The translations under genes were made by a program, and so were the position numbers. A model generated the notes under the pieces. It did not search any database. It was given only the letters and a program-made list of their open reading frames with translations, and was not told where the DNA came from. From Asterionella formosa (taxonomy: Eukaryota), in contig NKIB01012145.1 of assembly GCA_002256025.1 (NCBI GenBank), positions 62,001 to 85,712 on the forward strand: a stretch of DNA of 23,712 nucleotides, given 5' to 3'. Shown piece after piece: positions 4,201-23,712 of this stretch. Positions within the stretch are counted from its first letter, which is position 1. Every line of letters starts with the position of its first letter.

Positions 4201-5354
4201 CTTGATTTCCTCCTTAATCTTTATATCGCGGCGCTCGTAGGCAGCAAACTCCTCCTTCGTATCAATAAGTTCTTTGTGAATCTTGTCGTATTCTCGCTTC
4301 TGTGCTGCAAAGCCGTCTTCAATCTCTTTGACGCGATCATCGGCCAGCTTTAGCTGTTTGCGTTCCAATTCTAATTTTTCTTCAATACACTGCTTGTCAC
4401 AGATTATTTTTTTAGATTCCTTCACAGTCTGCATCATGTTGATCTGGTATAAAATGTTTTTCTTCCGCCGTATTTCACGCTCCTTTCCAAGCAACGCCTC
4501 TGCTTCAACCTTTGCTCCTTCTAAATTGTCTTTTTCCTTTTCTACTGCCTTTACACGGTTCAGCTTCTCTTGGCGTTGCTCCGAAAGTGCTTCTACTTTG
4601 GCGGCGGCAAGATTAGTCTCCTCAACGAATTTGTTGGATCCAATGATGTCCTCAAGGTATTCCAAAAGTCCCTCATCGTTTTCTGTCTTCCCCTTTGGAG
4701 GCATCATGGAGATCATCTCCACTTCTCCCTGCAAAATCAAGAATCGATTATTATCCAGGTCGATACCCTTGGATCCAAGGTAAGCCGCGACGCCTTTGAA
4801 AGAGCAGTTTTTTCCATTGAGCTTGTATTGTGATGAGTTGTCTGTCCTGGCCAATCTCTCAACAACGCACTCTGTTTGGGGGACAAGTTCATAGTCGTCG
4901 TCTCCGTCACCAGTGTCGATTATTTCTTGAAAGTACACGGATACACGAGCGTACTGAGGAGGGTTCTTCTTGACAGCATCTGAGTTGTGAATAAGCTCAC
5001 TGACTTTGTTCAAGCGAAGTTTTTTGGCTCGCTTTCCGAAGACAAAAAGCATGGCATCGATCACATTTGACTTGCCAGATCCGTTAGGACCCACGATTGA
5101 CGAGAAGCACTTGTGGAAGGGTCCAATCTCGCGAACACCAGCGTATGATTTGAAGTTTTCAAGAACCTGGTTTCATCAAGACGCAAGTGAGGTCAGACGC
5201 GAAGCTGCCTGCGTCGGAAAAACGCGGTGCAACACAAATGACTTACCATCTTTGTGATCATTAGTCGCTGTGGCGGTCTATCTTCGACGCCCATGATTCC
5301 TTCTTCGCCAAAGGCTGGCGCGTTCAGAGAAAGATCGAATTCTTGCTCTGTCAT
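1218..5354 (-). CDS. SMC4: Structural maintenance of chromosomes protein 4 (condensin subunit), ~1327 aa; exons 5354-5247, 5166-3676, 3602-1218
   Basis: Splicing gives RLMITKM|VLENFKSYAG...IVGPNGSGKSNVIDAMLFVFG (Walker A), FLILQGEVEMIS (Q-loop), hinge motifs GILGRLGDL and RWRVVTLDGGLIETSGTMAGG, signature LSGGEKTLSSLAL and Walker B YVMDEIDAALD. Phase-0 introns: 5246-5167 (GTAAGT..CAG, 80 nt) and 3675-3603 (GTGAGT..CAG, 73 nt). Confidence 0.96.
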
Positions 5355-5653
5355 GGTGGTGGATACCAAATCTACGTGTTGATTGTGCTTCTCTGAAATT
5401 CTGATAATAAAGTACGAGCAGGTGAGACGACGAGGCAATCGAAATTCAAATCTCAAAACCGTCACTTATTACATTCGTTCCAGCATCTACCGGGATACGA
5501 CATGTACCAGAGACCAGGTCCTACCGGTATATTATGTACCAGTGCGGGTACCAGTAGCTAGACGCTACGTAGTATCACACAGGTCTTTTACTACCAGTAC
5601 CAGGTACCTGGTACCAGGCGCTCTGAGACGAAGGCAACTACGATACTCTCAGG

Positions 5654-5753
5654 TACCTGCAAGTTGCGGTGATTTTGCTGAAACTAAAGATTTAGCTATC
5701 TTTATCTATGATTAAAATGTTAGTTCGAGCAAAATGACCGCAACTTGCTGGTA
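5654..5753. mobile_element. MITE copy 1 (~100 bp including TA flanks, ~26-bp TIRs, Tc1/mariner-like), in the divergent SMC4/GSS promoter region
   Basis: Left end TACCTGCAAGTTGCGGTGATTTTGCT and right end AGCAAAATGACCGCAACTTGCTGGTA are inverted repeats. Highly similar copies lie at 11706 and 20628. Confidence 0.85.
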
Positions 5754-5926
5754 TTATATATTAGTACTGGACGAAAGACGGTTTTTACTATAAGGGAAAC
5801 ACAGATAAACTTCTCTTTTACCGTACCAGGTACCAGAAACCATTCTTTTGATTATAGCCAGCCCTACACTATAGAGCATAGAGTGTTATCATTTTATCAT
5901 TTCTTCGTTTCCCCACACACCGCACC

Positions 5927-7615
5927 ATGAGAAGAAACAACAGGAGGCGCTATTGTGCGTTCAGAAACAAAGCAGCAATGGTGTTGGCCTTGAACTCTCT
6001 GCATTGCTTCCCAAGTGTTCGATTTCTGACTCTCGGATTGGCCCTCGGTGAGAGGAACACCCTTCCCTTGGAAAAATTAACTGCTCATGCCAATTCTTAC
6101 GCATCGGCGCGTGGACTTCAGGTGGAGAAACGTACCGGCGATGGCTCTTCGCTCTACGAATGCGCTCCAATGTCCTTACTTCCAAATGCTTACCCGAAGG
6201 AAGCGTTTTGTCGTGCCCAATCTCTAGCCATGCCCTTCAACCTATTGGTAGATCGCATCAGTCGAGACGGAAACTTCTTGGTGAATACATTGGGAGGTGG
6301 GGTTGCGGATGCAGATCCTTTTACTGGAAAGCTTCTCAAATTGTACAAGAAGATATACATGGAAGATCAAGATACATTTGCTAAATCGGCAGACTTGTTG
6401 GGAATTCTGCGATCGGATTACATGTTGAACTTTAAAGGACAAGGACAGCCACTGGAACTCAAACAAGTGGAGCTCAACACAATCGCTGCTTCATTTGCTG
6501 GGTTGGCAGTCAATGTCGCCGCTTTGCATCGGCACTTAATTTCGAGATTCCGATCAGATGTGCATGATTTTATTTGTGTCAATAAAGGTGTCATTAGCGG
6601 CTCTGCTGACGCCGAATTGTCCGACGACGATGGAGTACCAGAAAATCCGGCCTTACTTTTTATACCAGAAGCCATGAATGTTGCACACGAACGTTATAAG
6701 AGCAGGTTTCCAGATTCCGACCCAGTAATTCTTTTTGTGGTGCAAGAAGGCGAAACGAATACAGTGGACCAGAGGATGCTTGAATTTCGTTTATGGGAAG
6801 CACATGGAATTCCAGTCGTTCGCATGTCTTTGACTAGAGCACAAACAGACTTGCACGTCGATCCAAGTACCGGAGCGGTCCACATTACTACAGGAGGAGG
6901 GCGTGAAGAAGTATCCGTCGTATATTTTCGTTCTGGGTATGCTCCGACGGATTATCCGGATGGATATGAAGGAATTGAATGGGAGGCAAGAGAACGGATT
7001 GAACGGTCACGTGCCACGAAGTGCCCGAGTTTGGGATATCACCTAGCAGGAACCAAAAAGGTGCAACAGGAATTGGCAAGGTCAGGATGTCTTGAGCGCT
7101 TCTTTCCTGATGTCAACGAAGCTCCCATCGTAACAGACATTAGAAACGTTTTTGCTGGACTTTACAGTTTGGGCGAAGATACCGCACCTGAAGATCTAGA
7201 AGCAGTCAATGATGCTATCAACGGATCTGAAGGACGATATGTGCTCAAGCCACAGCGAGAGGGAGGTGGCTATAACTTTTATGGTAATCAACTGGCTGTG
7301 AAACTTAAAGAGAATATCGAACGAGCACCATCTAGTGATGATATCAAGCTTGGAAAAGGACTCGCGGAATTTATATTGATGGAAAGATTATTTCCGCCCC
7401 AACAACAGGCCGTGCTCTTACGGTCAGGAAGGGTACAAGGCAGTGGAGCGAGTATTTCTGAACTGGGCTGTTTCGGTACATTGGTTGTTTCAAGTGAAGG
7501 AGTTGTGGTTCACAACAAATACGCCGGCTTTTTACTTCGCACTAAATTCAGCAATGTTGACGAAGGAGGTGTTGCTTCTGGATTCGCCACATTGTCAAGT
7601 CCCTTTCTCTGCTAG
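5927..7615 (+). CDS. GSS: Eukaryotic-type glutathione synthetase, 562 aa (alternative in-frame ATG at 5978)
   Basis: Single ORF with the motifs LRSDYM, KQVELNTIAASF, YFRSGYAPTDY, KCPSLGYHLAGTKKVQQELA, VLKPQREGGGYNFYG, SELGCFG and GFLLRTK..EGGVASGF. Confidence 0.95.
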   Translation: MRRNNRRRYCAFRNKAAMVLALNSLHCFPSVRFLTLGLALGERNTLPLEKLTAHANSYASARGLQVEKRTGDGSSLYECAPMSLLPNAYPKEAFCRAQSLAMPFNLLVDRISRDGNFLVNTLGGGVADADPFTGKLLKLYKKIYMEDQDTFAKSADLLGILRSDYMLNFKGQGQPLELKQVELNTIAASFAGLAVNVAALHRHLISRFRSDVHDFICVNKGVISGSADAELSDDDGVPENPALLFIPEAMNVAHERYKSRFPDSDPVILFVVQEGETNTVDQRMLEFRLWEAHGIPVVRMSLTRAQTDLHVDPSTGAVHITTGGGREEVSVVYFRSGYAPTDYPDGYEGIEWEARERIERSRATKCPSLGYHLAGTKKVQQELARSGCLERFFPDVNEAPIVTDIRNVFAGLYSLGEDTAPEDLEAVNDAINGSEGRYVLKPQREGGGYNFYGNQLAVKLKENIERAPSSDDIKLGKGLAEFILMERLFPPQQQAVLLRSGRVQGSGASISELGCFGTLVVSSEGVVVHNKYAGFLLRTKFSNVDEGGVASGFATLSSPFLC

Positions 7616-7802
7616 CTAAATAATGACATTGGAAATTCTCAAAATAAAAATTCATACCGGTAGTTCATTAATTTACTGGGCCGTGCGACCAAGTTTGGTA
7701 CGTAGATTGTTAACAAGATGTTGAGAATTCAAACAAAGTAATTCATGGGGTGTATGCTTCTTGTCACGTAAGTATGTGAAGAACCATGTAGGCATACTAC
7801 TT

Positions 7803-9347
7803 TTAGAGGTCAAAGAAAGTCAAAGGGTCAGGCTTTCCAATGGCATGAACCTCAAAACCAATCTTTCGAAGTGCATTGTGGTCCAAGAGGTTGCGTCCAT
7901 CAAAGAGAAAGGCAGGCTTGGCCATGGACTTAAAGATGCGTGTGTAGTCTAGGTCCTTGAAACAGTCCCATTCAGTCAATACGCAAATAGCGTGTGCACC
8001 ATCACATGCCGAGTAAGCGTCTGGTGAGGTGGTGACCGATTTGTCAAGTCCTGGAGTATTTGTGTGGTTCACGTGACAAGTGTAATCCATCTCAATCCAC
8101 ATATCCTCACGCTTGACTTCTGGATCGAAAATGTGAATATTGGCTTGCTCCTGGAGCAAATCACGAACCACAAACATGGAAGGAGTCTCACGGACATCAC
8201 CGGTGTCCTTCTTGAAGGCATAACCAAGAATAGCAATCTTCTTTCCAGTCACAGTGTTGAACATCTTTCCAACAATTTTTTCTGTGAAACGTTTCTTCTG
8301 GTAGTCGTTCATCACGATGACTTGATTCCAGTACGCAGCGCATTCGTCCAATCCATAGGACTCGCAGAGGTAGACAAGGTTGAGAATGTCCTTTTGAAAG
8401 CAAGAGCCCCCAAAGCCGACCGACGATTGCAAGAATCTGCGACCAATGCGATCGTCCATGCCGACAGCGCGGCTAATCTCGTTAACATCAGCTCCAGTGG
8501 CTTCGCAGAGAGCTGAGATGGAGTTGATCGAGGAGACCCGTTGGGCAAGGAATGCGTTTGCAACCAACTTGGATAGCTCCGAAGACCACAAGTTGGTGGT
8601 CAAGATTCTTTCCCGAGGCACCCAGTTAGCGTACACATCGGCAAGGAAGGTGGCTGCCTTGATGCCAGCTTCGTTCTGCTGTCCCCCAATGAGGACACGA
8701 TCCGGCTTGAACAAATCAGTCATGGCGGTACCTTCCGCGAGGAACTCTGGATTCGAAAGCACCTGGAAGTCTAGGCCCTTGTCGTTGGATTGCAGGACGC
8801 GAGCAATAGCATGTGCCGTTCTAACAGGCACAGTACTCTTTTCCACCACGATCTTGTTGGTAGTGGCAACCTCAGCAATCTTGCGCGCACAAAGCTCGCA
8901 GTTCTTGATGTTGGCAGCACGTCCAGCTCCAATCCCCGTCGTCTTCGTAGGAGTATTGACGGAAATGAAGATCACGTCGGCTCTTTGGATTTCGGCGTCG
9001 ATGTCAGTGGAGAAAAAGAGATTCTTGCCTCGACATGCCTGGACTACCTCAAGGAGGCCTGGCTCGTAAATAGGGAGCTCATCAGTGTTCCAAGCATCAA
9101 TCTGGTTCTTGGAGATATCACACACGCAAACACGGACCTGCAGACGAATGAATTGACAAGTGTAAGCTAAGGGTGGACAGGGGGATGGCAGGTCCAGTGT
9201 CGGACCAAGGCTCTAGCGAACAACCGTAGCTGAAACTGAAACTGAAGTGAAACTCACTCTGGGGCACATCTTCGCAATCACCGCCATGGTCGGTCCGCCG
9301 ACGTATCCGGCTCCCATGCACATCACGTAGACATCGAATTCGCTCAT
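7803..9347 (-). CDS. UGDH: UDP-glucose 6-dehydrogenase, ~474 aa; exons 9347-9258 and 9137-7803
   Basis: Exon 1 [30 protein letters not shown] carries the Rossmann GxGxxG. Phase-0 intron 9257-9138 (GTGAGT..CAG, 120 nt). Exon 2 has [40 protein letters not shown], catalytic [10 protein letters not shown] and [11 protein letters not shown]. Confidence 0.96.
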
Positions 9348-9729
9348 TGGATTAGAATGTGTTCCAGTTCGGGACCGATGGTGTGCGTGGGTGTTTGTTG
9401 AGTGATGTGGAAGATGCTAATCTAAATTCTATTCTTTGGCTGCACAATGATGCTGCACTATCGCATCTATTACTGAGTATCAGACTACCGGTAGACTCTA
9501 CCTTTTAAAGTTTACGTGTACATACATAGGTAAATACACAGTACGAAGTGGGGAGTAAACTGAACAGCTACTTACTCCGCAGCTATACTCAAATTTTTTG
9601 AATTTTTAACAATTCGTTGGAAAACAATCACGTTGCTCCTCTTTGAATATACAGCTAGTATAGAGTGATAAGTTACACAACCATTTTACCGGACACTGAG
9701 GTCGATGTGTACCGTATGTAAAAGGTAGC

Positions 9730-10560
9730 TACATACGACAAATTCCACACACGAGTATATGGAAAACGGAATCCAGAATCAGCTTGGATGCAGTAATGCC
9801 TGAAGTAGAAAATGAGCATACCATCATCAGGAAACAATGACAGTATACCGGTAGTATACTGGTATGCATAGAGGCTCCTGTTATGATGATGCCAGTCTCA
9901 CCAGAACAGTATGTGGGTATAATATGTGTCATGTATCCTGTCGGATTAACAATGGAACAGAACTCACATGGATTCGGTAAGTTTATAAAATCATACACTA
10001 TTCCTCCTTACTACAGTATTACTCTAGCATGCTCATAGACAAATGCTTTTTTTTCTTGTGAAGGAGCGAGAAACACCAATGGCTGCAATCAAAGCTGAGC
10101 AACTGGGGGGATGGTGGTGTAGCTATGTGCTGATGGTTACCAAATGTCTTTAATTGGACAAAGTTTGATGCAGCCTCATCAGGCCCTATGAACCGATATT
10201 GTTATGAACCCAAGGTGCATTTCCAATTGTCATCAATATGGTCCATTTACAAGCTAAAAATTAGGTTGCAAAAGGAAGTGTATCCTTTTGTGTTTCCTTC
10301 TTCGCCCAATATTCTATCCAGAATAATGGCATCACGAGTTCCGGTGACACAGAAAATTGCATGGTGAGTCCACAAGTCCTGCTCAGCTGCAACCGATGCT
10401 GAAATGCAGCCAAAACAGTGTACCATTTCAGAATGTCACCCCATGTGATCCTGGCAAAACCCATGATGATTTTCTAGTTGCAGTTCACCCTCCTGAACAT
10501 TATTTGCATGTTCACTTCCCTCTCTCGTCCATAAAGCGTCACGATTCAGCGAAATAAAAA
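9730..10560. pseudogene. Decayed coding-like, CpG-depleted relic, probably transposon-derived; identity unknown
   Basis: Protein-like reading frames broken by TGA/TAA stops on both strands. One intron-like segment, 9977-10063 (+, GTAAGT..poly-T..AAG). Only 5 CpG counted by eye in 9781-10260. Confidence 0.3.
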
Positions 10561-10607
10561 GCAGAACTCTTCTAGTTGCAAAAACGAGAGAACACACAGC
10601 ATATGAG

Positions 10608-10715
10608 TATGACTTTCAGGAAATCATTTTGACTTTCAGAAAATTCCTATGAATTTCAGGAAATGACTATGACTTTCAGGAAATTTCAGGAAATTTCAGC
10701 ATTTCTCAGGAAATC
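10608..10715. repeat. Degenerate minisatellite with core TTTCAGGAAAT (units ~10-20 bp)
   Basis: TATGACTTTCAGGAAAT / TTTGACTTTCAGAAAAT / TATGAATTTCAGGAAAT / TATGACTTTCAGGAAAT / TTCAGGAAAT / ...CTCAGGAAAT read directly. Confidence 0.8.
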
Positions 10716-11199
10716 TGTGCAATTTCCTTAAGTCTCCAAAATTTGGCTTTTCTGGCCAAGGTACTAAAATAACCACCTAAATTTTGTTCCGGAATAAAAG
10801 TACTACTACTAAGCTAGCTTGTTTCTAGGTGAGGCCGTTATTGTATATCCTCCACCTATAGATACCTAGGTAGTATGGTAGTAGGTTGTTCATATGTGAC
10901 CATGTTATTCTGTACCCTCCATCATCTACTAGAAGGTCCGGTAGTAGCGCACGTTCTATGCGCACCTTTCAGTTTCGACGCACTCCCGATGGATCGTCTC
11001 ATGCCTGCCGGACGAAAAAGACCAGCTTTCGACGAAAATAATATTCCTTAAGTAGTTTAGGAAAGCATTACTCTTATTGACCGATGATGATTTGCAGAAT
11101 CAGCCTCTGAACATGACTCAGATTTGCTGACTGATGAACAGGTTCAGCAAACCGTCTTCTAGCTTCGGAAGCAACATAGGAATCCTACCTTTCTACATT

Positions 11200-11350
11200 T
11201 AGAACTTGCTGACAATGGCTGGGATTTTCTGACACAACTAGAATTTGCTGACAATTACTAAAATGTATTGACTTCAACTACTAGAACTTGCTGATTATGA
11301 CAAAACTTGCTGACAGTGACTAGAATTTGCAAACAATGACTAGAACTTGC
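11200..11350. repeat. ~20-bp minisatellite, consensus TAGAAYTTGCTGACAATGAC, about 7-8 diverged copies
   Basis: Units such as tagaacttgctgacaatggc, tagaatttgctgacaattac, tagaacttgctgattatgac, aaaacttgctgacagtgac and tagaatttgcaaacaatgac. Confidence 0.85.
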
Positions 11351-11651
11351 GAATAAGAATCGATTTTCTGAATGAAGTATATATATGAACAAACACACCA
11401 ACCAATACCCCTGATAGCCAAAAGTAAGCAAGATTTGCTTATTTTTGCTTACATTGCTTACTTTTTGTTTCGGGCCACCCCTGTATTGCCCCAGTCATTG
11501 TTGTGTTTTCTTAGCGTTTCCCTGTTTATTAGAAGAATAAAAATAGTATACAACCTATGTCACTTAGAAGTGGTGATCATAAAAACGATTTTAAAGAGTG
11601 AATTGATGACGTTTTCTATATTTGAGCGCCTGTCCTGCGTCACGTTATCAA

Positions 11652-11681
11652 TTTCAGTAAAATGACCGCAACTTTCAGATA
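11652..11681 (-). mobile_element. Orphan terminal inverted repeat related to the MITE left end, in reverse orientation
   Basis: The reverse complement TATCTGAAAGTTGCGGTCATTTTACTGAAA matches the MITE left end TACCTGCAAGTTGCGGTGATTTTGCTGAAA, but the sequence inside it differs from the MITE interior. Confidence 0.7.
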
Positions 11682-11705
11682 TCCCCTGATGATGGTGGTA
11701 CAAGG

Positions 11706-11804
11706 TAACTGCAAGTTGCGGTAAATTTGCTGAAACTAAATGTTTAGCTATCTTTATCCCATATTAATTGTTAGTTCAAGCAAAATTACCGCAACTTGCT
11801 GGTA
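11706..11804. mobile_element. MITE copy 2 (99 bp), ~120 bp upstream of the PCGF start codon
   Basis: TAACTGCAAGTTGCGGTAAATTTGCT...TTTAGCTATCTTTATC...AGCAAAATTACCGCAACTTGCTGGTA; collinear with copy 1. Confidence 0.85.
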
Positions 11805-11925
11805 CCTGGTACCAGGGAACCTGGTGGTATCAGGTAGTGTCTATTGTAATACCGGTAATACAAACAAAGCGGCATAATAGATCTCCTATTGTTGTGTGCG
11901 GTCAAGGTCAAAGTTCTGTGGAAAC

Positions 11926-12817
11926 ATGAGTCTGCAAGATCAGGTCGAGCGGAAACGAATTGCTTTGCCCAGTCCAGAGGAAGCCCCTGCCAAACGAATA
12001 TGCGGCAATGAAGAGCCCAGTAATATGTCCAATGGAATCATCAAATTTGCGTTGGATCCGATCAATCAATATGTGACATGCATCCTATGTTCTGGATACT
12101 TCCGGGATCCAGTTACTATTACCGAGTGCCTTCACACATTTTGCAAATCATGCCTCGTTCTCGCCATTTCGCGAAAAAACTCGAAATGCCCCACGTGCTC
12201 GGTTGACTTGGGTCCGGATCCCTTCAAGACGACTTTGAGTGATCGGACATTGCAGGAGTTGGTAGACAAAGTTTTGTTGCCAAATTTATGTGCTCAGGAT
12301 ACGGCTCAGGAAAGGGAGTTTTACAGCAGCCGAGGTATAAATTTAAAACCAGAACACGAAGAAGATTTTTTTAACAAGGAGTTTCCCAAAGACAACGAGG
12401 CACGGAGGGTGTTCGGCTTTGCTAAGAATCTGCAGGTAGGACGATCATACGTGGCATTGAGCAAAATCGTGCACAATTCAACCTCTCACGTCATCATTCT
12501 CGCTCTCGTTTCGTTCACATTAGACGGATGAACACGTGGAATTCACTTTAGTTCCAGAAGTTGGCTCGTCCATGCCGAAGCTGCTAAAACCAATGATTCG
12601 AACACTTGGAATCCTCCAAATTGTCCAACTGAAGAAGTACCTAGTAGTAAAGCTTAATATGCAACAGAATGACGTGTCATCTTTTGAAATTCTGTGCCGA
12701 GGCAAGGAGCTTGGAAACAAATTGAGTCTGACATTTGTTAAGCGGACCATATGGCTAGATTCCAAAAGTGACCTGCAACTCACTTATAATTGCCTGAAAT
12801 ATGTAGTTCGGCGATGA
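11926..12817 (+). CDS. PCGF: Polycomb group RING finger protein (PCGF/Psc/BMI1-like; C3HC4 RING plus RAWUL-like C-terminus), ~267 aa; exons 11926-12435 and 12524-12817
   Basis: INQYVTCILCSGYFRDPVTITECLHTFCKSC...CPTC..DRTLQELVDK is the typical PCGF RING. Phase-0 intron 12436-12523 (GTAGGA..TAG, 88 nt) joins it to TDEHVEFTL...LKKYLVVKL...FEILCRGKELG..LSL..LQLTY, which is RAWUL-like. Confidence 0.88.
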
Positions 12818-13143
12818 CAACAATAATTACCTAGATATGACAGTTGATTCCACCATCCCTGCAACGAGATGCCATGTTGAACCTGAACACATATTGCTAT
12901 CAAAAATTGATAAACAGAATGAGATGATAGATATGAAAAAACCTATTTAGTAACAGCAGGTAATATGCAATTGTATGATGATAGCAAATGAAGTATGATC
13001 AAGAGTGCAGATAATTCTAATCATTGCTAGTGAGCCAATGAAGTGAGGAAATATCAACCATGATGTAATGGTTGCATGTGTGGACATTGACATGATGTGT
13101 TTGAAAGGGTGATGGTTTTCCGGATTGTAAATGTAAGGCACCA

Positions 13144-16100
13144 CTATTGAACTATGTCGCCACCACCGACGAGGGTAGGTCGCTGAGCTCCCCCAGGAGC
13201 CATACAGGACCTAGCCACGCTTTCAAAGACCTTTTCTATCTCAGTAGCACAGCGCGTGAACGGATGACTCCAGAACTGGTATCTTTGGTTCTTGATAAGC
13301 TCGATAAAGGTAATAAGAAGTCCCCACTAAAAGAGAGTTGAAAGAAATAGGTGAGACATTACGGATACTTGTATTGGCAGATTCGAGCAACCTTGTGTGA
13401 ACTTACAGGATGCGGACGATGAAGGATGAGACGTTCGAGGAGAACGCGGGTCACCTGTTCTTTTACAGCAGAAATTTTCGATTCGCTGAAAAGGAATAGC
13501 ATGACACATGAGAAATAGTGTGTGTGGCTCGAAGGGAAACGGAGCTGGTTCGCAATAGCGTTCAAACTGATGTATCGACCGTGGTCGTCAAGCTCCATAA
13601 GCTTCTGCAGGATTTCCAATTCCGGAGTGTTGGCAAGGCTCTGGATCTGAGCACTCTGTAACCTGCTGATTGCTTGAATTCCTACATAAAGAACCAAGGA
13701 ATTAATACGAGGAGCATCTACTTCTTTCGTTCCCGCTTTATAGAGACGCGGTAACAAGCCGGAAATGAAGTCTCCACGTTCGCCCTTCAAGAAATTTTCT
13801 AAGCTCCCACGCATGGCCTCAATTGGCCCCATGACATTCGAAAGGATGACTGGGTTCTGTGAGATCTCGATCAATGAATCAATCTTCAAGTTAGGAGTAA
13901 AAGGGTCCGGCAAGGTCATGCCCTTTGGTACAGCAGAAAGGATGACATTGCGAAGCTGAACACAATTCTCTGGCAAAATATTGCAAAGCGAAAGATGATA
14001 TCCAGCAAGAAATGACGGGAAATCATGGAGTAAAATAAGGAGAACTCGAAGAGTTCCTTCGTATAGTTTCTTAATGGCAGGCCCCATGTCAATTTTCCCA
14101 AGGTGAGGTTCTAGGAACAAGAAGATATCCACAAGGAGCTGGTGGGCCACCCCCCACCCTTTCTGGCCCTGCAGTAACAATAGGTTGGGCAGGAAAGTAC
14201 GATGTGACACCAACTCGAGCCAAGCGAACGCAAAGCCAGGCAGAACAAGAGGCTGTGCAACATGAAAAGCCCCACCGAATATAGCGAGAATACTGCTTTG
14301 AATAGGATCAAACACCGGGTCAGGAGAATTCATGTCCACGGTTACGTTCAAAAGAAGTCTATACCAAGGCCTCTGGTCCCATGGTTTGAGCCCTTGCTTC
14401 TTGTTCTTTTCAAAGTCGAACATAATGCATCGAATGACAGCACCGAGAAACGTGTTCAACATGCCGACTCTCTGGGCGGTTGTTTGTTCCTCGCTCCCGC
14501 CGCCATTCAAAAACTTAATTTGAAGGGGAAGTAGCTTCGCGTAGATGTCAATGACAGAATAATTCAGAACGTTGCCATTCCCATCAGCTCCGCCATTGGA
14601 TGTCTTCAGAACGGCCTCAACCACAAGCTGGGCTGCTAGGCGGAAGAAGCGCTCAGTCTGTTCGTCCGATTTTCCAACTCCGTTTTGCTGTAAAAGCTGC
14701 AGATACTGTGTCAATACCTTATCGTTTGCCACAGCTTCGCTGTGCAAACGAATCCAACCGTCAAGCAAAAACGTAACTTGCTGTTTGGCATTGGGAGGAT
14801 CTGTGCGCGCAAAGCGAAGAAGAGTCTCGGCCGCACTCTTTGTTCCATTAGAATAAGCAACGAGCGATGCGGTGGACAGACTACTGGTGACGTCGATTGT
14901 AGCATGACGAGGTTCTGTTGTAGCTTCTGGTCGAATACTTCTAGCTTGTTGTTCGATTCCGCCAGAGGATCCACGCACTTCATCGAGCATTCGAAGTATT
15001 GGCTTTCGCAGAGTTTGGCTTACTTGTGGGTCTGCTTGACTTCTTCCTTCGACAATCTTGGTCATAAGGTCCATCAGCTTGGGAAAGTCAGATGGAGCAG
15101 CTATCCTCTCTAGGAATGCAGTTCGAATGAACAACAGAGAAAACTCAACCCAAACTGGATTGCGGCCACTATCAGCGCTTGCGCATAGAAAGCTATCAAG
15201 TTCTTGCGTCGACACAAGATTGCTGCGAACAAGGAGAAGCAATACAGTGCGATGGAGCTTCTTCTGGGCTTCGGTTTCTGTCGGAGCGTAAGTCGCCCAG
15301 GTACCTAAGTCTTTTCCTAGCTGTGGACATGATCCATTGATCTTTTCAAGCAAAGCTACAAGAGCCTCAAGACGGAGGGGCTCGGTCAACCGGAGTTCGT
15401 AAAGGCGCTTAAACACGCTTTGAGAAAAGCTCAACACAGCTTCTTTTTCTGACTGTGTAAGATTCTGTGGAACAACTTGAGGAACAGCAGCCAGCAACTT
15501 GCGAATGTCATGGTCCGCAGGTAGCATAGAAAAGGTGACTTCAGCGGCACGAGGTCCGGTTGAAGACAAGAGGGCGGAAACAGAGCCATCCATTTTGGTC
15601 GCGATTGTTTGAAGAGCCTCAAGGTTGAGTGGCTGGTCAGTGTGGCTGGCACCTTCAAGATTTGGATTTGATCTCGATGGTGTCAGACCGGAGGAGCCAT
15701 ATCCTCCGGCTGTGGGCAGTCGAGGCATTCGTTGGAACGCCTCATAGACTCTGAGTTGTTCCGGGCGTAGACCTCCGGGTTTCGGACGAAGTGGTTCGGG
15801 CAGCGCACCAGGATAACGCTGGTTTCCATTGCCAAGGACAGCCATGTCGTAGTATGGTTGGCCCCCGGTTTGCTCCCTGTGTTTGCGACGGGCAGTGAGG
15901 CCTGGGGAGAGGGCTTCGTCGACATCACGCACCGCCTTTTCGGTGGCAGCCTTTTCAATGAGCATGCAACCAAGCTCCAGGTTATCAGTAGCACAAATGG
16001 AGACACACTGTTCAATGATTGTTTGCTCCTGTTCGGTCAATTTTTCAGAGCCACCCGCACTGTTGGTGAGCAATTGCCGAAGATGAGTTGATATACTGGT

Positions 16101-19100
16101 GCGAAGCGGGTCTCTACAAGTAACCAAAGCCAAGCTTCCTGCAAGGTTTGCAACCATCAACTGAGCTGCTTTTCGAGTCTTGTTTTCGTCACCTTCAGTT
16201 GCAAAATCTTTGGTCACAATTTCTTTTGTGGTTATGCATGCGATTGTGACACTTCTTTCAACAACCGGTTGAATAATCTCCCTAATAGCACGATCAACCG
16301 CCATAGGGACTGCTTTCTTGAGAGTCACGGTGCTGAGAGCAGTAGTCAGACCAGGGGATATAGTGCTTCCAGAAGGTTGCTGAATCAGTTGAGCTAAGCT
16401 GGGGTTTATTGTGACATACGCAGCGAGATTTGGAATAACTGTTTGCTGCTCCCCTCCGGCGGTCTTCGACTGTCCGCCATTTGAAGTTGCGGTAGCTGCT
16501 GTTTGTGGTATGCTACCAGTGGATACATTAGACACCAGAGTGTTCCCGTCGGGGCTTCCAAGGATCGGCCCACCTGGAAGCGGAGTTGCCGTAATGGCCG
16601 GGGCGGGGGCGCTAGGGGGTGGTGCAGTTGATACCACAGTGATCTTGACATTGAAATCGGGATTCTTCTCTTTGACTGGCTTGATTCGAAGGGCCAAGGC
16701 TTCAGTTCGGGGAGAAATTTCTTCAAGCTTTATGTTCAGATTCTTGCAAAGTACCTCCACTTCAAATTTTATGTTCATCTTCAAATCGTCAACTTGGTAC
16801 AGTGCACGGAACACTCCCAAAAGTCCCATAACCCAAGGATTTGGAGGGCGAAAAACAACTGAGCTCTTAGCACCCTCTAGAATCTTCGCTACAAAGGGCG
16901 TTACAGCAATCAACATTCCATTCTCGTATCCTTGAAAGAGTAGTTCTTTACAGTCCAACATCACTTGAAGAATGGGGCGATTCCTTGCAATAGTGATCTG
17001 ACCCAACCAACTTCCGAGATTCTTCAGAAGACTGCGCTCCGACGTAGAAGTTGTAATCTTGGGGGAGCGCAAGAGCTTTCCAATATTCAAGTAGACACTC
17101 GACAAGATGGATATGATCAGTCCCTTTCCATAGTCACCCAAGTGATCCAGAAATGCTAAGTATAGAGCATGAAAATTGGGCTGAGCACTGATCCGTTTTA
17201 CGACCAAGTAATGGCCCAGCCAATCAAAATACTGTGGCTTTAGCATCTCTCTGAGTTCTGCAGACTTCGCTTCGACGTTTGAAGGTGAAATATTATTGAT
17301 CAAGAATTGCACTCGATCCAGAACTGCATCTGGGGGAGCTTCGTGTTGAACTTCGACTTCTACTTTGTTGTTGACAGCGCGTCCAAGTTTAGGACCGAAA
17401 ACAGGAACTCGGTTTTCAGCTGGTTCGGGACGAGGAAAAGCAACCGATGACAGCTCAATGGAGGACGACACAGATCGATTTGGCACTGAGAAAGCACCGC
17501 TTGGTTGTGGATTGGGTGGAGTTGCACTCATAACACTAGAGCTCCCCCCTCGTGACCGATCTCCATCACCGCTGCTTCCACCGATACTGCCGCTGTCAGT
17601 TGGACCATGCTGCTGAGGAGGCTTGCTCTGACTCTCCGACATAGCAGTCTCAATTTCTCCAACCAATTCGGCGTAACCATCCTTCAAATGAGGAATTTGT
17701 ACAATATGAGAACAATATTGGGGCCACTCGTGTAAACGGTCCTTGAACTGCTCCAAAGCAAACATTCCGAACCGAAACATTTTCCCACTACTGGAGGTGT
17801 TCGAACCAGGGGGGGAGGAAGGGGGGCGACGCAAGGCTTCCAAAACATACCGAAGAGCGATTCCCAAGGTAATGCTGTTGACTAATTGCTCCTTGATAAG
17901 AGTACCAAACAATATTCCGGTAATGCGAAGCTCTTTCTCTGGGTACTTGGAAAAGAATCGATATTCGTCGAACAGGTTGCGAATCATACAAGCAAAGATC
18001 TCATTCTCTCGGGTGTCGCCAGATGTTTTGAAACGCTTAAGCATTTCCACAACCTCTCCGATGCTCTGTTCTGAGGTATAAATCTTTTGAAAATATGAAT
18101 TGGCCATTTCGTCAATGTCATCATCGTTGGTTGGCGAAGGCTTTTGCTGCAATCCTTGAGAAGCATTGATTTGCTGCTGCTGAAAGGATTGACTAAGACT
18201 GGCTCGAATCGAAGAATGTGTCGAGGCACAAGCCTCGGTCAAAGACTTGATGCTATCGAGTAAAGTGATGGGCTGACCATCACTGGGAATCGTTTGTTGA
18301 AGTAGTGTGGAATCTAATGAATGGAGAATTTGAAGGGAAAGCAACATATTCTCCAATGACACCAAGACTGAACTATCGCGGGGCGCCGCCGTTGGGTACA
18401 TCTTGGCCAAGTAAGCCACCAACGCAGCTGCAAACAAGACTCCGCTGGATGAGAACCGTTCCGTCAGCCATGGCTTGAGTTGAAGGATGTTCTTGTCCGC
18501 CATCACAAACGCAACAGCCAACGAAAACTCGGGATCTTTGCTTCCATTCAAAAGCGAGGCTATAGCAGTTTCTGGAGATGGGAGCAGTCGAATAATTTGG
18601 ATAAGGTGCACAATCGTTCCAAGGCGAGTCTGGGGCGCTTCTGAAGCTGTTGACTTCCAGGCTTCAATGCAGGCTGCTGTCACAGTGTTCGGTGAGATAG
18701 CCCAAAGTCGCCGTAATGCAGCGGGTCCGTTTTGCATTCGATGGTTAGAATTGGGCTTGAAAAATAGAGGAATCAGCTCCCGCATCAACTCTCCCTTCAT
18801 TTGCTGTCCACCGGACGGGGCACCATTCAACTGCAGTCGCACAAGAGCACAGAGCAAGACTTCGGGACAACCCCGCAGACCCTCGACAAACAAGTCTCGG
18901 ACTCGTCGCGCTAGAGTAGGAATGTCACTGAGACATAAAAGTCTCTGCAAAACAGCCGCTGATGCCCAGCAACGCGGGTTTGGAGAGGTTGCTCCTTGGC
19001 CTGCGCTCGTTTCAGCATCAGCAGTTTCTGCTTCGTTCAACTCGCAAAGGTAGACTGTCGGCGAGACGGACAACACGGCCTCCAAAAGAGAAGTTTGGCC

Positions 19101-20205
19101 AGCAGCATGGGTCCATTGATAAGTCAAAGCAGCTAATGGAGGGTTCGCCAATGCACCAGATTGATAAAGTTGCAGTAAGGTTTGGAATTGTTCAGTGCTC
19201 GAAATATTGAAATCAAAGAAATCCCATTTTAGCGCCACTTTGGCCCAATCGAGAGATGCAGAATAATCTCTTCGAATGACCGAGGATACGACTGGCAGGG
19301 ACCATCCAATTTCCGACGGGTCATTGTAACTTCCCGGTAGAATACTTCCTAGAAGCGATGAGGATAGTGAGTCCATGGAAAGGGCTTTTTTCGATTTGGA
19401 CGAGAAGAAGTGCAAAATTCTGGCCATCGCAGCTTCGTTCATCCCGCCAGGCAGCATTTCTGCCAGTGTCTGTCGAAAGATGGTTTCATTTCGAGTACAA
19501 GCAGGGCCCACGTCCGCTAGTAGATTTGCGATAACTGAAACTGCATCTGCTGCAGCCATTCGGTCTGCGATGCCACCAGTTGAGAACAGACCACTGTCGA
19601 GGCTGTTACTCCCAGGAAACAGTGAATCCATTTTAATTTGCTTACGTAGATGCTTCTTTAGTTTGCACACGACCCGACTGAGTTGCTCTTGGTGATATGT
19701 TTGTTTGAAACTCAAGTGTTCCGACGTCTCCAAAACTCCTTTCGCTTCTTCGAGGATCGATAAACCTAAAGACTTCGGAAGAGTTTCTTCTAAAGCTGTA
19801 TCCAATGTTTGAACAAGTGCTAAAGCGGCTTTTTCTGCTGCACCTGTGCTTTCTTTGTTTCTCGCAGTCGTTGTCTGGTGATGAAATGACGGAAGGAATA
19901 GGGAAGGAGCATGTGAGCGAGTTTGATTCTGAAGCATTGAGTTGGTATCTTTTCCGTATTCTACTGACCAAATTCCGTATAAAAGGCGACAGAATTCCGG
20001 GGGTAAAGGCGTGTTTTTTACTCTGTATGACTCTGCCGTAGATTTCAACCAGAACAGGCGCTACCGCGCGGGGCCTTCCGGCCCTTTTTGAATGTGAAGT
20101 AAGGTCACTGTTGCTAAACTGAGTCGATGAATATGTATCAGATATAATAGAATCACTAATGCACTCGTTGGATCTGTCTTCTGTTGTTATTACGCCCTCG
20201 CTCAT
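13144..20205 (-). CDS. CNOT1: CCR4-NOT complex subunit 1, ~2295 aa; exons 20205-19969 (less certain), 19874-13407 and 13326-13144
   Basis: Motifs [88 protein letters not shown] and [18 protein letters not shown]. Intron 13406-13327 (GTAAGT..TAG, 80 nt) restores [26 protein letters not shown], with the stop at 13146-13144. A proposed 5' intron 19968-19875 (GTCAGT..CAG, 94 nt) gives [17 protein letters not shown]. Confidence 0.93.
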
Positions 20206-20483
20206 GGGCCATGGCCTAGCCTTTTTATTCTCTTGCTTTGTGTTTGATTTGTTTGGAATTGGCGCTGGCGCTGAAGCTGCTGGCGACACACAGACCAAAT
20301 GGTTATCCTTACCGGTACATACATAACAATATGCCGGCATATCAAATTCGTGCCTCGTACCTGGTACCTGGTAGCAAGTACCAGGGGTACTGTAAATTCG
20401 ATGGATAGTGTGTTATACTTTCAACATGTATAGAATTTGTACCAGGTACCAGGTAGCCTCCAATTGTACCTCGTACCTGGTTG

Positions 20484-20571
20484 CCTGTCGAAGGTCCGGT
20501 GAATGGTTTTTTTACTAAAGAAAAGATATAGCTAAATATCTTGATTAGCGGACCTTCCTGTGGGAAGGTCC
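20484..20571. mobile_element. Degenerate small inverted-repeat element related to the MITE (second subfamily)
   Basis: GAAGGTCCG (20490-20498) and CGGACCTTC (20549-20557) are inverted repeats enclosing AAAGATATAGCTAAA, which resembles the reverse complement of the MITE core TTTAGCTATCTTT. Overlapping hairpin GGACCTTCC-TGTG-GGAAGGTCC. Confidence 0.45.
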
Positions 20572-20627
20572 AGTGTAGTGGAACCAGTTATGAGGTCCTG
20601 TTGCATTGTGCCTATACTCCTACCTGG

Positions 20628-20727
20628 TACCAGCAAGGTGCGGTAATTTTGCTGAAAGTAAAGACTTAGCTATCTTTATCCCAGATTAAAATGTTTGTTT
20701 AAGCAAAATGACCGCAACTTGCAGGTA
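20628..20727. mobile_element. MITE copy 3 (100 bp), ~420 bp upstream of the proposed CNOT1 start
   Basis: TACCAGCAAGGTGCGGTAATTTTGCT...TTAGCTATCTTTATC...AGCAAAATGACCGCAACTTGCAGGTA; collinear with copies 1 and 2. Confidence 0.85.
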
Positions 20728-21205
20728 CCAAGTACCTGGCACCCCACCGTAGACTGGGAAGGTAAGTGTTGAAATGGTCCGTACACCTTCCCGCGGGCTG
20801 GGTCTCGGTTCACGTAGACTCTTACGTGTTCGTAGTACTACCTAGTAACCACTTACTTTCTCTCTCGTCTCTGCTTCCAGCCTTCCTGCAAGATAGACAA
20901 ATTGACCTTCCTGTCAATTAACACGCTGTTTCCTCAATTGATAATCTAAACTATAATTAAATTACAAGCTAAACTAAATGTTTCCTTGCTTTCCAGGCAT
21001 CTTTGCTTCCCGCAAAGTCATTCTGAGACTCTCTTCGAGTTTCCACATTTCCATAGAAATCTTCAATCTTCGATCTCGTTAGACAGCTGATTCACATGGC
21101 AATGCAATATTCGAATTTTTCGATTACAATCAAGTCAAACAATCCTTGTGACTCGAGCTAATTTTCTTGACAGGTAAGGACGGTATTGTAGGTACATCTG
21201 CAAAT

Positions 21206-21490
21206 AAAAACTATCATGAATATAGGATCAAGGGTATCGTACGCTAAGTGGCATAGGATTTTTACATATATGATAGTTTTTCAATCAAAGATATGATCAA
21301 TGTATCATATAATTATGATCATGCAGCAAACTTTTACCAAGCTTGACGTATGATGATACTATCATAGTTATAATACGATTGCATCAAATCATTAGTTAAA
21401 CATGGTCCTATGATGTGTATACTTTTGTCATGCATCTATCTTAGCATGATCATAATTCTCATCGATAACACTGTCTAAAATAGGATGAAA
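21206..21490. repeat. AT-rich patch of TATGAT/ATCATA-type motifs in both orientations, with two perfect inverted pairs
   Basis: AAAAACTATCAT (21206-21217) pairs with ATGATAGTTTTT (21270-21281). AATTATGATCATGC (21311-21324) pairs with GCATGATCATAATT (21444-21457). Confidence 0.6.
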
Positions 21491-23324: not shown

Positions 23325-23712
23325 TTTCAATTATATGATTATACAATCCTAAAAATATGATGATTTACTGTCCCGCTGCAGTAACAGCAGTCATGAACAT
23401 ATGGTGTTCTGTTGCTCGCTTACTACTCCGACTACTCTCTTTCAATTTTACGATCATACAATCCTAAAACTATGATGATTTACTGTCCCGCTGCAGTAGC
23501 AGCAGTCATGAACATATGGTGTTCTGTTGCTCGCTTACTACTCCGACTACTCTCTTTCAATTTTACGATCATACAATCCTAAAACTATGATGATTTACTG
23601 TCCCGCTGCAGTAGCAGCAGTCATGAATATATGGTGTTCTGTTGCTTGCTTACTACTCCGACTACTCTCTTTGAATTTTACGATCATACAATCCTAAAAC
23701 TATGATGATTTA
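23325..23712. repeat. 115-bp tandem repeat, at least 3.3 near-identical copies, truncated by the window end
   Basis: ATACAATCCTAAAA recurs at 23341, 23456, 23571 and 23686, with only a few substitutions between units and no spacers. Confidence 0.95.

What the first reader, a model, noticed from the sequence alone, without database searches (positions are those of the whole stretch)
5654..20727. A ~100-bp TA-flanked MITE present three times, always just upstream of a gene
Seen: three collinear copies (5654-5753, 11706-11804, 20628-20727) with ~26-bp TIRs (TA-CCWGCAAGTTGCGGT-N-ATTTTGCT), TA at both ends and, in copy 1, an internal palindrome TAAAGAT-ttagct-ATCTTTA. Copy 1 lies between the divergent SMC4 and GSS starts (~300 and ~170 bp away), copy 2 ~120 bp before PCGF and copy 3 ~420 bp before CNOT1. 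None was seen in the 3' spacers. All three have the same orientation on the + strand. Established: TA duplication plus short TIRs is typical of Tc1/mariner-derived MITEs. Inference: a high-copy family that targets or is retained in promoters, and could supply cis-elements or hairpin small RNAs. With three copies, promoter bias is only suggestive.
Basis: partly seen in the sequence, partly recalled or inferred. Interest (0 to 1): 0.75.

Follow-up and report, generated by a model that had tools for sequence, protein, structure and literature searches.

The report
Mini-transposon landing in other transposons' scars
A tiny, gene-less jumping element with over a thousand copies in an alga's genome inserts into one short palindromic DNA word, which appears to be the scar left by a different jumping element, and this goes far to explain why it sits in front of genes.

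Summary
The element is an 88-bp MITE (CAAG...CTTG, 20-bp TIRs; at least 1,206 candidate places in the genome). It duplicates CWG, not TA: the middle base is a direct repeat in 54 of 56 copies, and the youngest copies lack the TA pair. A decayed 3-kb element with the same TIRs encodes a ~300-aa DDE_Tnp_4 transposase, so this is PIF/Harbinger (PHIS)-like, not Tc1/mariner. The target is AC-CWG-GT, mostly TACCWGGTA. Promoter bias is real against a TA-site null (16 of 19 vs 37%), but unoccupied target words are also 5'-biased (42 of 72) and the MITE does not differ significantly from them. Alleles of one locus with 0, 2, 4 and 5 TA-CC(W)GG units at one TA show such words are written into TA sites, probably as footprints of another element. 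No empty site for the MITE itself was found, a 1-bp duplication is not excluded, and no regulatory role is shown. The scan noted CWG duplication and scar arrays before on other DNA of this genome; the transposase partner, the scar alleles and the null test are added here.

The parts
5660..5747 (+). MITE copy 1, 88 bp, CAAG...CTTG; duplicated CTG at 5657-5659 and 5748-5750
5685..5704 (.). internal palindrome of copy 1; a feature of the family consensus
11712..11798 (+). MITE copy 2, 87 bp; duplicated CTG at 11709-11711 and 11799-11801
20634..20721 (+). MITE copy 3, 88 bp; duplicated CAG at 20631-20633 and 20722-20724
11422..11675 (+). right end (left limit approximate) of a longer, non-coding 1.7-2 kb element with the same TIR ('family B'), followed by CAG at 11676-11678
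5598..5613 (.). two overlapping unoccupied TACCWGGTA target words
5824..5832 (.). unoccupied TACCWGGTA target word
11803..11811 (.). unoccupied TACCWGGTA word abutting the right flank of copy 2
20358..20455 (.). two pairs of unoccupied TACCWGGTA words (20358-20373, 20440-20455) upstream of CNOT1
20621..20629 (.). unoccupied TACCWGGTA word abutting the left flank of copy 3
5927..7615 (+). context: glutathione synthetase gene
13359..20205 (-). context: CNOT1 gene, ATG 20205 (or 20340), intron 19875-19968

Best explanation
The repeat is an 88-bp non-autonomous cut-and-paste element (MITE) of the PIF/Harbinger (PHIS, IS5-like) type. A ~300-aa DDE_Tnp_4 transposase, encoded by a ~3-kb element with the same 20-bp TIRs, recognised the ends (inferred from shared TIRs) and inserted it into the centre of the palindrome AC-CWG-GT, duplicating CWG (duplication of the central base shown; 3-bp length favoured, not proven). 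The commonest such site in this genome is TACCWGGTA, which is about 50-100 times over-represented and clusters near gene 5' ends (shown); the flanking TA is part of that target. These words are written into plain TA dinucleotides (shown for one locus across samples and in further copies), most likely as excision footprints of a different, TA-targeting element with CC...GG ends (inferred). The MITE therefore reaches promoters by following its target. It is a selfish passenger with no shown host function.
For: Middle base direct in 54 of the 56 copies with W on both sides (37 T/T, 17 A/A, 2 A/T, 0 T/A), out of 64 distinct full-length copies; exact 3-bp direct repeat 34 of 64, inverted 1 of 64 (Fisher p=2e-12). 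A/A and T/T copies are not separate subfamilies (nearest-neighbour agreement 0.53 vs 0.56 shuffled, p=0.66). Six copies 98-100% identical to consensus have exact CWG repeats but no TA pair, e.g. L028 in a perfect palindrome AATACAC-CAG-GTGTATT. Triplet positions conserved 224/256 vs TA positions 173/256 (p=8e-8). A MITE inserted into the end of a longer relative shares one CAG with it, with no TA-CC between them (L069). Same TIR on L265 (DDE_Tnp_4 E=1.4e-5; D-D-E motifs; CAG...CAG) and L264 (CTG...CTG); 79 homologues, 69 with PF13359, 8 of 8 tested above the Pfam cut-off. Promoter test in 424 kb. Footprint-like alleles. Precedent: NuwaI CWG TSD (PMC4482050), Harbinger3_DR target with the same ACCWGGT core (PMC3016246), extended targets and Tourist MITEs in PIF/Harbinger (PMC2836001).
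Against: No empty site for any MITE copy: none among the 15 joints shown of 136, none real among 10 candidates from 120 flank pairs. The C at -3 is lost far more often than the G at -1 (162 vs 44 half-sites), which a 3-bp duplication does not predict; many of these are ends with 1-2 extra bases, which I cannot explain. Only 2 of 32 paired off-consensus loci show a matching off-consensus triplet (L187, L216). The transposase copy found is broken (one stop, one frameshift, degenerate right TIR), and homology to the MITE is limited to the TIR; mobilisation is inferred. TIRs start with C, whereas PHIS TIRs usually start with A or G, and no Myb/SANT partner was detected. MITE copies are somewhat more 5'-biased than free targets at one threshold (16/19 vs 42/72, p=0.059). 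The transposase that makes the footprints was not identified.
Confidence: 0.8

Rival explanations
1. One reading: a Tc1/mariner-derived (Stowaway-like) MITE of 96 bp with CCWG ends that duplicates TA.
For: All three window copies have TA at both ends; TA-C is the commonest flank; a TA-flanked, CCAG-ended repeat does exist in this genome (L243-L250).
Against: W is direct, not inverted, in 54 of 56; TA on both sides in 22 of 64; the youngest copies lack it. It would need two equally diverged, interleaved subfamilies in the MITE and again in two longer families. The gene under this TIR is DDE_Tnp_4. No DDE_3 match in the genome (0 of 16 candidates; pogo-type DDE_1 not searched).
Confidence: 0.03
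2. Same element and transposase, but the ends are GCAAG...CTTGC (90 bp) and only the central W is duplicated (1-bp TSD). The empty site is the same word.
For: G at -1 is much better kept than C at -3 (CWG 587, DWG 162, CWH 44; p=5e-17). A G start fits the usual purine start of PHIS TIRs (PMC4482050). PHIS groups already vary from 0 to 3 bp.
Against: Much of the DWG excess is ends with extra bases next to an intact CWG. L216 (AAG/AAG) and L187 (CTC/CTC) are off-consensus 3-bp direct repeats; where -1 is not G, +3 is also not G in 6 of 12 distinct loci against 22% expected (p=0.03). CWG 3-bp duplication has precedent; I recall no 1-bp group (recall, not searched).
Confidence: 0.12
3. Copies are kept in promoters by selection because they supply cis-elements or hairpin RNAs, over and above target choice.
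For: MITE 5' bias is nominally higher than that of free targets at two of three gene-calling thresholds (84% vs 58%, 72% vs 52%). Copies 2 and 3 are present in other samples. MITE-like contigs occur in a poly(A) run (cannot be assigned to a locus). Such roles are known for plant MITEs (PMC12595863).
Against: The differences are not significant (p=0.059, 0.18, 0.80). No orientation preference. No Rfam family. The hairpin follows from the TIRs alone. Copies decay, nest and take insertions.
Confidence: 0.12
4. The TACCWGGTA words are a host promoter motif or slippage-born micro-repeat, not footprints; the MITE targets them all the same.
For: They are 5'-biased and form 7-bp tandem runs that could grow by slippage; the 2/4/5-unit series is one duplicated locus. 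No footprint-making transposase was found.
Against: Units appear at TA sites inside transposon copies whose ancestral state is a plain TA, each bounded by a new TA, and in several lengths (CCGG, CCWGG, CTGG, CTG). The whole series is over-represented (219, 193, 96, 79 vs 0-4 for permuted words).
Confidence: 0.18

Closest known systems
NuwaI group of the PHIS superfamily (PMC4482050; abstract, Background, Results, Discussion and Methods read, supplements searched by term)
   Same: CWG target duplication; DDE_Tnp_4 transposase; TIR length within 12-61 bp; a second ORF in the long element.
   Different: NuwaI was found only in 16 animal genomes, TIRs usually start GGG, and ORF2 has Myb/SANT. Here the host is an alga (apparently a freshwater diatom), TIRs start CAAG, and no Myb/SANT was detected. 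Clade membership could not be tested.
Zebrafish Harbinger3_DR (target quoted in PMC3016246; two-protein mechanism in PMC2836001; passages read)
   Same: Extended palindromic target with the same ACCWGGT core; one young copy here sits in AATACAC-CAG-GTGTATT.
   Different: Outer target letters here are mostly GGT...ACC, not AAAC...CTTT; no Myb-like partner shown; no activity shown.
Tourist-like MITEs such as mPing (PMC2836001, PMC12595863; passages read)
   Same: Small, high-copy, TIR-bounded, near genes, mobilised in trans by a PIF/Harbinger-type transposase, 3-bp duplication in an extended target.
   Different: Tourist duplicates TWA in AT-rich sites; this duplicates CWG in a GC-centred site, and shares only the TIR with its coding relative rather than being a plain deletion derivative.
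Stowaway-like (Tc1/mariner) MITEs (PMC12595863; passages read)
   Same: Size, hairpin shape, apparent TA at both ends in many copies.
   Different: TA is part of the target, not the duplication; transposase family differs.
MITEs reported in diatoms: Phaeodactylum tricornutum, 235 copies (PMC5859163) and Cyclotella cryptica (PMC7466962); passages read
   Same: MITEs and PIF/Harbinger elements are known to occur in diatoms.
   Different: The passages read give no target site, superfamily assignment of the MITEs or promoter test; this one family has at least 1,206 candidate places.

Membership tests
MITE (general) | short, non-coding, TIR-bounded, high copy, target duplication | tested here: met
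   88 bp; 1,206 candidates, best 40 at 91-100%; 587 exact 23-mer half-sites, control 0; direct duplication
MITE (general) | empty sites showing insertion polymorphism | tested here: inconclusive
   none found in four runs (15 of 136 joints shown), two flank searches or 120 flank pairs against 0.95 Mb held
Tc1/mariner (Stowaway-like) | TA target duplication | tested here: not met
   TA both sides 22 of 64; absent in the youngest copies; W direct 54 of 56
Tc1/mariner (Stowaway-like) | DD(D/E) Tc1/mariner transposase with the same TIRs | tested here: not met
   no DDE_3 match; the same-TIR gene is DDE_Tnp_4; DDE_1 not searched
PHIS superfamily | IS5-like DDE_Tnp_4 transposase between the same TIRs | tested here: met
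   L265 exon 2 hits PF13359 above cut-off; 8 of 8 full-length homologues do; weak IS5 hits below cut-off in 3 of 8; TIR alignment
PHIS superfamily | short duplication within an extended, palindromic target | tested here: met
   flank logo GGTAC-CWG / CWG-GTACC
PIF/Harbinger sensu stricto (Tourist) | TWA duplication | tested here: not met
   CWG
NuwaI | 3-bp CWG duplication | tested here: inconclusive
   centred on CWG; 3 bp favoured over 1 bp only weakly
NuwaI | TIRs usually beginning GGG | tested here: not met
   CAAG
NuwaI | second ORF with Myb/SANT domain | tested here: inconclusive
   further ORFs exist in L264/L265 but are decayed; no Myb hit in Pfam and no Atlas hit at 0.9 or more
NuwaI | transposase falls in the Nuwa clade | not testable with these tools
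   no labelled NuwaI transposase was obtainable from a tool
ISL2EU | AT duplication; THAP and YqaJ domains | tested here: not met
   CWG-centred duplication; no THAP or YqaJ in 8 homologues or the ORF pieces

The most novel reading that the evidence does not exclude
A two-element relay: a TA-targeting transposon with CC...GG ends leaves TA-CC(W)GG-TA scars where it enters and leaves gene-upstream DNA, and an unrelated lineage of compact (~300-aa) PHIS transposases, with C-initial TIRs and no Myb partner, uses those scars as its main landing sites. One transposon's repair scars would then be the genomic address book of another, steering more than a thousand MITEs to promoters without selection and without harm to coding DNA; this lineage would be a CWG-duplicating PHIS group outside animals.
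Probability: 0.45. Interest if true: 0.75.

Novelty: new variant of a known kind. Interest (0 to 1): 0.55.

Why it matters
It corrects a classification trap: an element inserted in TACCWGGTA looks TA-flanked and would be filed as Tc1/mariner by eye or by MITE finders. It extends CWG-duplicating PHIS elements, described only from animals in the survey read, to an alga, with different ends and a compact transposase clade that has many relatives in public data. It gives a mechanical, testable account of the old question whether MITEs sit near genes by targeting or by retention: here a short target word, apparently made by another transposon, accounts for most of the bias. A small transposase with a 7-bp sequence preference could also be of use as a tool if an intact relative proves active.

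Tried and rejected
Tc1/mariner partner: DDE_3 search of the genome gave nothing. The 30 best DDE_Tnp_4 loci and 10 more chosen by hand did not carry the TIR at their ends; the dominant family starts AGGG and is distant from the partner's clade. A coding fragment beside a family-B end (L101/L181) and an ORF in L253/L254 belong to nested elements. Family B (1.7-2 kb) shares the TIR but showed no transposase. Empty sites: four runs laid on window 4900-21300 gave no joint that skips one copy among the 15 shown (121 not shown); two flank searches found only an LTR ending before the MITE and duplicated filled loci; the 10 in-script candidates were artefacts of tandem copies. RNA: poly(A) contigs stop at 5508, 5911, 11853 and 20174, short of the copies, but contigs break at repeats and cannot show a start; only one RNA run was laid. 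Rfam: no match. Orientation bias: rejected. Subfamily explanation of the W pattern: rejected (smallest column p=0.005 of 88 columns). Atlas search of ORF2: best 0.85, a lead at most. Literature: no paper held diatom+GGTACC+intergenic+motif+genome; ISL2EU+diatom gave two off-topic listings; NuwaI+transposon gave four listings; footprint-targeting search gave 12 listings, none read; the TIR word is absent from the three supplements of PMC4482050, one of which was cut when stored. Repbase and Dfam could not be searched.
Full report
Observation. The three repeats lie exactly where stated and align without gaps but for one base. The TIR core occurs 11 times in the window against 1.74 expected and each copy folds far better than shuffles. 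The flanking genes are an SMC gene, glutathione synthetase, a C3HC4 RING gene and CNOT1; with the introns shown by an RNA run, start codons are at 5354 and 20205, so the stated distances hold. The host is a eukaryote of 68.4 Mb in 15,436 contigs; that it is a freshwater diatom is my inference from the run labels, the named transposase relatives and earlier scan notes.

Copy number. A search with copy 1 gave 1,206 candidate places, of which 40 were scored and the best 40 hits were 91-100% identical. An exact 23-letter half-site occurs 587 times, its reversed control 0 times. In 423,712 bases from four contigs, chosen because they held hits and so not a random sample, a profile found 21 copies including partial ones. 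The consensus core is 88 bp, CAAG...CTTG; copies average 92% identity to it.

The ends. In each window copy the hairpin has one unpaired base near the foot, because the triplets outside the core are direct repeats: CTG/CTG, CTG/CTG, CAG/CAG. Among 64 distinct full-length copies, 56 have A or T in the middle position on both sides, and 54 of these are direct (37 T/T, 17 A/A), 2 inverted; the other 8 have another base on one or both sides. The sample leans towards T/T and towards TA flanks, since many loci were ranked by likeness to copy 1 with its flanks or picked by a pattern requiring CWG on one side. The two classes are not subfamilies (nearest-neighbour agreement 0.53 against 0.56 shuffled). 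TA stands in register on both sides in 22 of 64 copies, and in 17 of the 34 with an exact triplet repeat; six copies 98-100% identical to consensus have the exact triplet and no TA pair. Conservation falls from 224/256 at the triplet positions to 173/256 at the TA positions, though outer positions are also more exposed to erosion. In L069 a MITE has entered the end of a longer relative and shares a single CAG with it. So the duplicated unit is centred on W within AC-CWG-GT, mostly TACCWGGTA, and TA belongs to the target.

One base or three. A 3-bp duplication predicts equal loss of the C at -3 and the G at -1. Instead half-sites with a changed -3 number 162 and those with a changed -1 number 44. 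I fetched 20 of the 44 and 20 of the first 100 listed of the 162; 14 and 18 had a partner end. Many of the second set are ends with one or two extra bases beside an intact CWG, which I cannot explain. Two loci show off-consensus 3-bp direct repeats (L187, L216), and where -1 is not G, +3 is also not G in 6 of 12 distinct loci against 22% expected (p=0.03). Three bases is favoured by this and by precedent; one base is not excluded.

The transposase. There is no DDE_3 match in the genome. The best DDE_Tnp_4 loci belong to other families. Following TIR half-sites that do not continue as MITE led first to a non-coding 1.7-2 kb family, whose right end lies in the window at about 11422-11675, and then to a second family (13 of 42 hits fetched). 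In it, L265 runs 3,067 bp from an intact left TIR after TAC-CAG to a degenerate right end before CAG-GTA, and holds a two-exon gene with the motifs SVDGTH, VGDEGYRG and ARHETFN, one stop and one frameshift; it hits DDE_Tnp_4 above cut-off. L264 has both TIRs with CTG/CTG and an internal deletion plus nested inserts; L268 is a 977-bp derivative whose triplets do not match. The 20-bp TIR is the same as the MITE's; likeness ends there. A search with exon 2 found 79 relatives of 219-409 aa at 37-66% identity, 69 carrying PF13359, the two with species names from diatoms; 8 of 8 tested pass the Pfam cut-off and none has THAP, YqaJ or Myb; they align with both exons. No Myb/SANT was found in the other ORF pieces. 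That this enzyme moved the MITE is inferred from the shared TIR and shared duplication, not shown.

Promoter bias. In the window all 9 unoccupied TACCWGGTA words lie in the same three spacers as the copies, two of them abutting a copy. With a simple codon-score gene caller at three thresholds, intergenic MITE copies lay within 600 bp of a coding 5' end in 16/19, 13/18 and 10/18 cases against 37%, 31% and 28% of intergenic TA sites (p=3e-5, 4e-4, 0.014; without the window copies 14/17, 11/16, 9/16, p=2e-4, 0.002, 0.02); none of 21 was in coding DNA, and 2-3 at contig edges were left out. Unoccupied target clusters more than 500 bp from any MITE were also 5'-biased (42/72, 36/69, 35/69; p at most 3e-4), and MITE versus target did not differ significantly (p=0.059, 0.18, 0.80). 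The word occurs 193 times against 1-5 for permuted words. There is no orientation bias.

Where the target comes from. Earlier scan notes on this genome proposed that such arrays are excision footprints, and one that the main family duplicates CWG; I took the footprint idea from them and tested it. One MITE copy with the same flanks occurs in G000 (L210, L251, L252) and in public metagenome contigs (L258, L261, L263; 3 of the 6 hits). At one consensus TA inside it, L258 and L263 have plain TA, L261 and L251 two TA-bounded CC(W)GG units, L210 four and L252 five; a second TA also carries units. Among 97 TIR-to-TIR copies there were 17 insertions of 4 or more bases, 8 of them TA-bounded units at two consensus TAs (7 from this one locus, 1 from the independent copy L217); further TA-bounded inserts occur in the transposase family's arm. 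The series TACCGGTA, TACCWGGTA, TACCAGTA/TACTGGTA and TACWGTA is over-represented (219, 193, 96, 79; permuted controls 0-4; TACCATGGTA only 3). A young repeat ending in CTGG-TA is a candidate maker (L243-L250), but its transposase was not identified, and multi-unit runs may grow by slippage. PIF/Harbinger elements usually excise cleanly (PMC2836001, passages), so the MITE itself is an unlikely maker of the scars.

What was not found. No empty allele of a MITE copy. Contigs of other samples run from unique flanks into copies 2 and 3, so those insertions are shared. No evidence for a regulatory role: no Rfam hit; poly(A) contigs end at 5508, 5911, 11853 and 20174, which is weak because contigs break at repeats.

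Comparison. It works like a Tourist-type MITE under a PHIS transposase. The CWG duplication matches NuwaI, reported from 16 animal genomes with GGG ends and a Myb/SANT ORF, in a survey whose genome list included three diatoms (PMC4482050: main text parts 1-3 of 4 read, supplements searched by term). The ACCWGGT core matches zebrafish Harbinger3_DR (PMC3016246, passage). It fails NuwaI on the TIR start, is inconclusive on the partner ORF and could not be placed in that clade, so I file it as PHIS-like, not NuwaI. MITEs and PIF/Harbinger elements are known in diatoms (PMC5859163, PMC7466962, passages). Searches listed nothing describing a CWG-duplicating element in a diatom or a MITE that targets another element's footprints; these cover only the open library, most listings were seen as titles and abstract starts, and Repbase and Dfam were not searchable. 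PMC4455052 and PMC12595863 were read as passages.

Verdict. Observation confirmed; interpretation partly supported. A new variant of a known kind: a CWG-duplicating, PHIS-type MITE in an alga whose promoter bias largely follows a target word that appears to be another transposon's scar. Interest 0.55.

Noticed in passing
window 11422-11675; L081-L140: Right end of a 1.7-2 kb non-coding element with the MITE's TIR and long subterminal inverted repeats; 161 and 764 candidate places for two parts of it; mostly truncated copies.
   Followed up: yes
L265:620-3686 (-), L264, L268: Decayed ~3-kb element with the MITE's TIR, a DDE_Tnp_4 gene and further ORFs of no known family; deletion derivatives and nested inserts.
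   Followed up: yes
L187-L226: Many MITE ends carry one or two extra bases between CWG and the TIR (CAG-AG, CTG-TG and the like), sometimes on both ends; unexplained, perhaps repair of single-end cuts.
   Followed up: partly
L243-L250: Young, high-copy repeat ending in CTGG-TA and followed by GGTACC arrays; candidate maker of the TA-CC(W)GG-TA footprints.
   Followed up: partly
L031-L060, L076: Very young DDE_Tnp_4 family starting AGGG, dozens of near-identical copies at contig ends; one copy is inserted inside a MITE (L076).
   Followed up: partly
window 20763-21300: Very high-copy repeat right of copy 3: summed contig depth several hundred to about two thousand times unique depth.
   Followed up: no
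window 23325-23712: 115-bp tandem repeat, at least three units at 95-97%, running off the contig end.
   Followed up: no
window 10594-10714 and 11191-11350: Short tandem arrays (10/20-bp and about 39-bp units) in the long spacer upstream of the UDP-glucose dehydrogenase and RING genes.
   Followed up: no
L013, L002/L012, L070, L072/L073, L030: MITE copies often lie in tandem or nested pairs a few bases apart, one entering the flank of another.
   Followed up: partly
L210, L251, L252, L258, L261, L263: One MITE-bearing, array-rich locus is duplicated on at least eight small G000 contigs and recurs in three public metagenome contigs; array length differs between them.
   Followed up: partly
L061:1-1520, L227-L232: Young Gypsy-type LTR element with about 40 near-identical ends; in L061 it ends about 60 bp before a MITE in a GGTACC-rich tract. 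Observed only.
   Followed up: no
L238-L241: Another DDE_Tnp_4 family with ~60-bp TIRs and a convergent second ORF.
   Followed up: no
L181:1295-2526 of the minus strand: Decayed Cys-rich transposase-like fragment nested in a family-B copy; superfamily not determined.
   Followed up: partly
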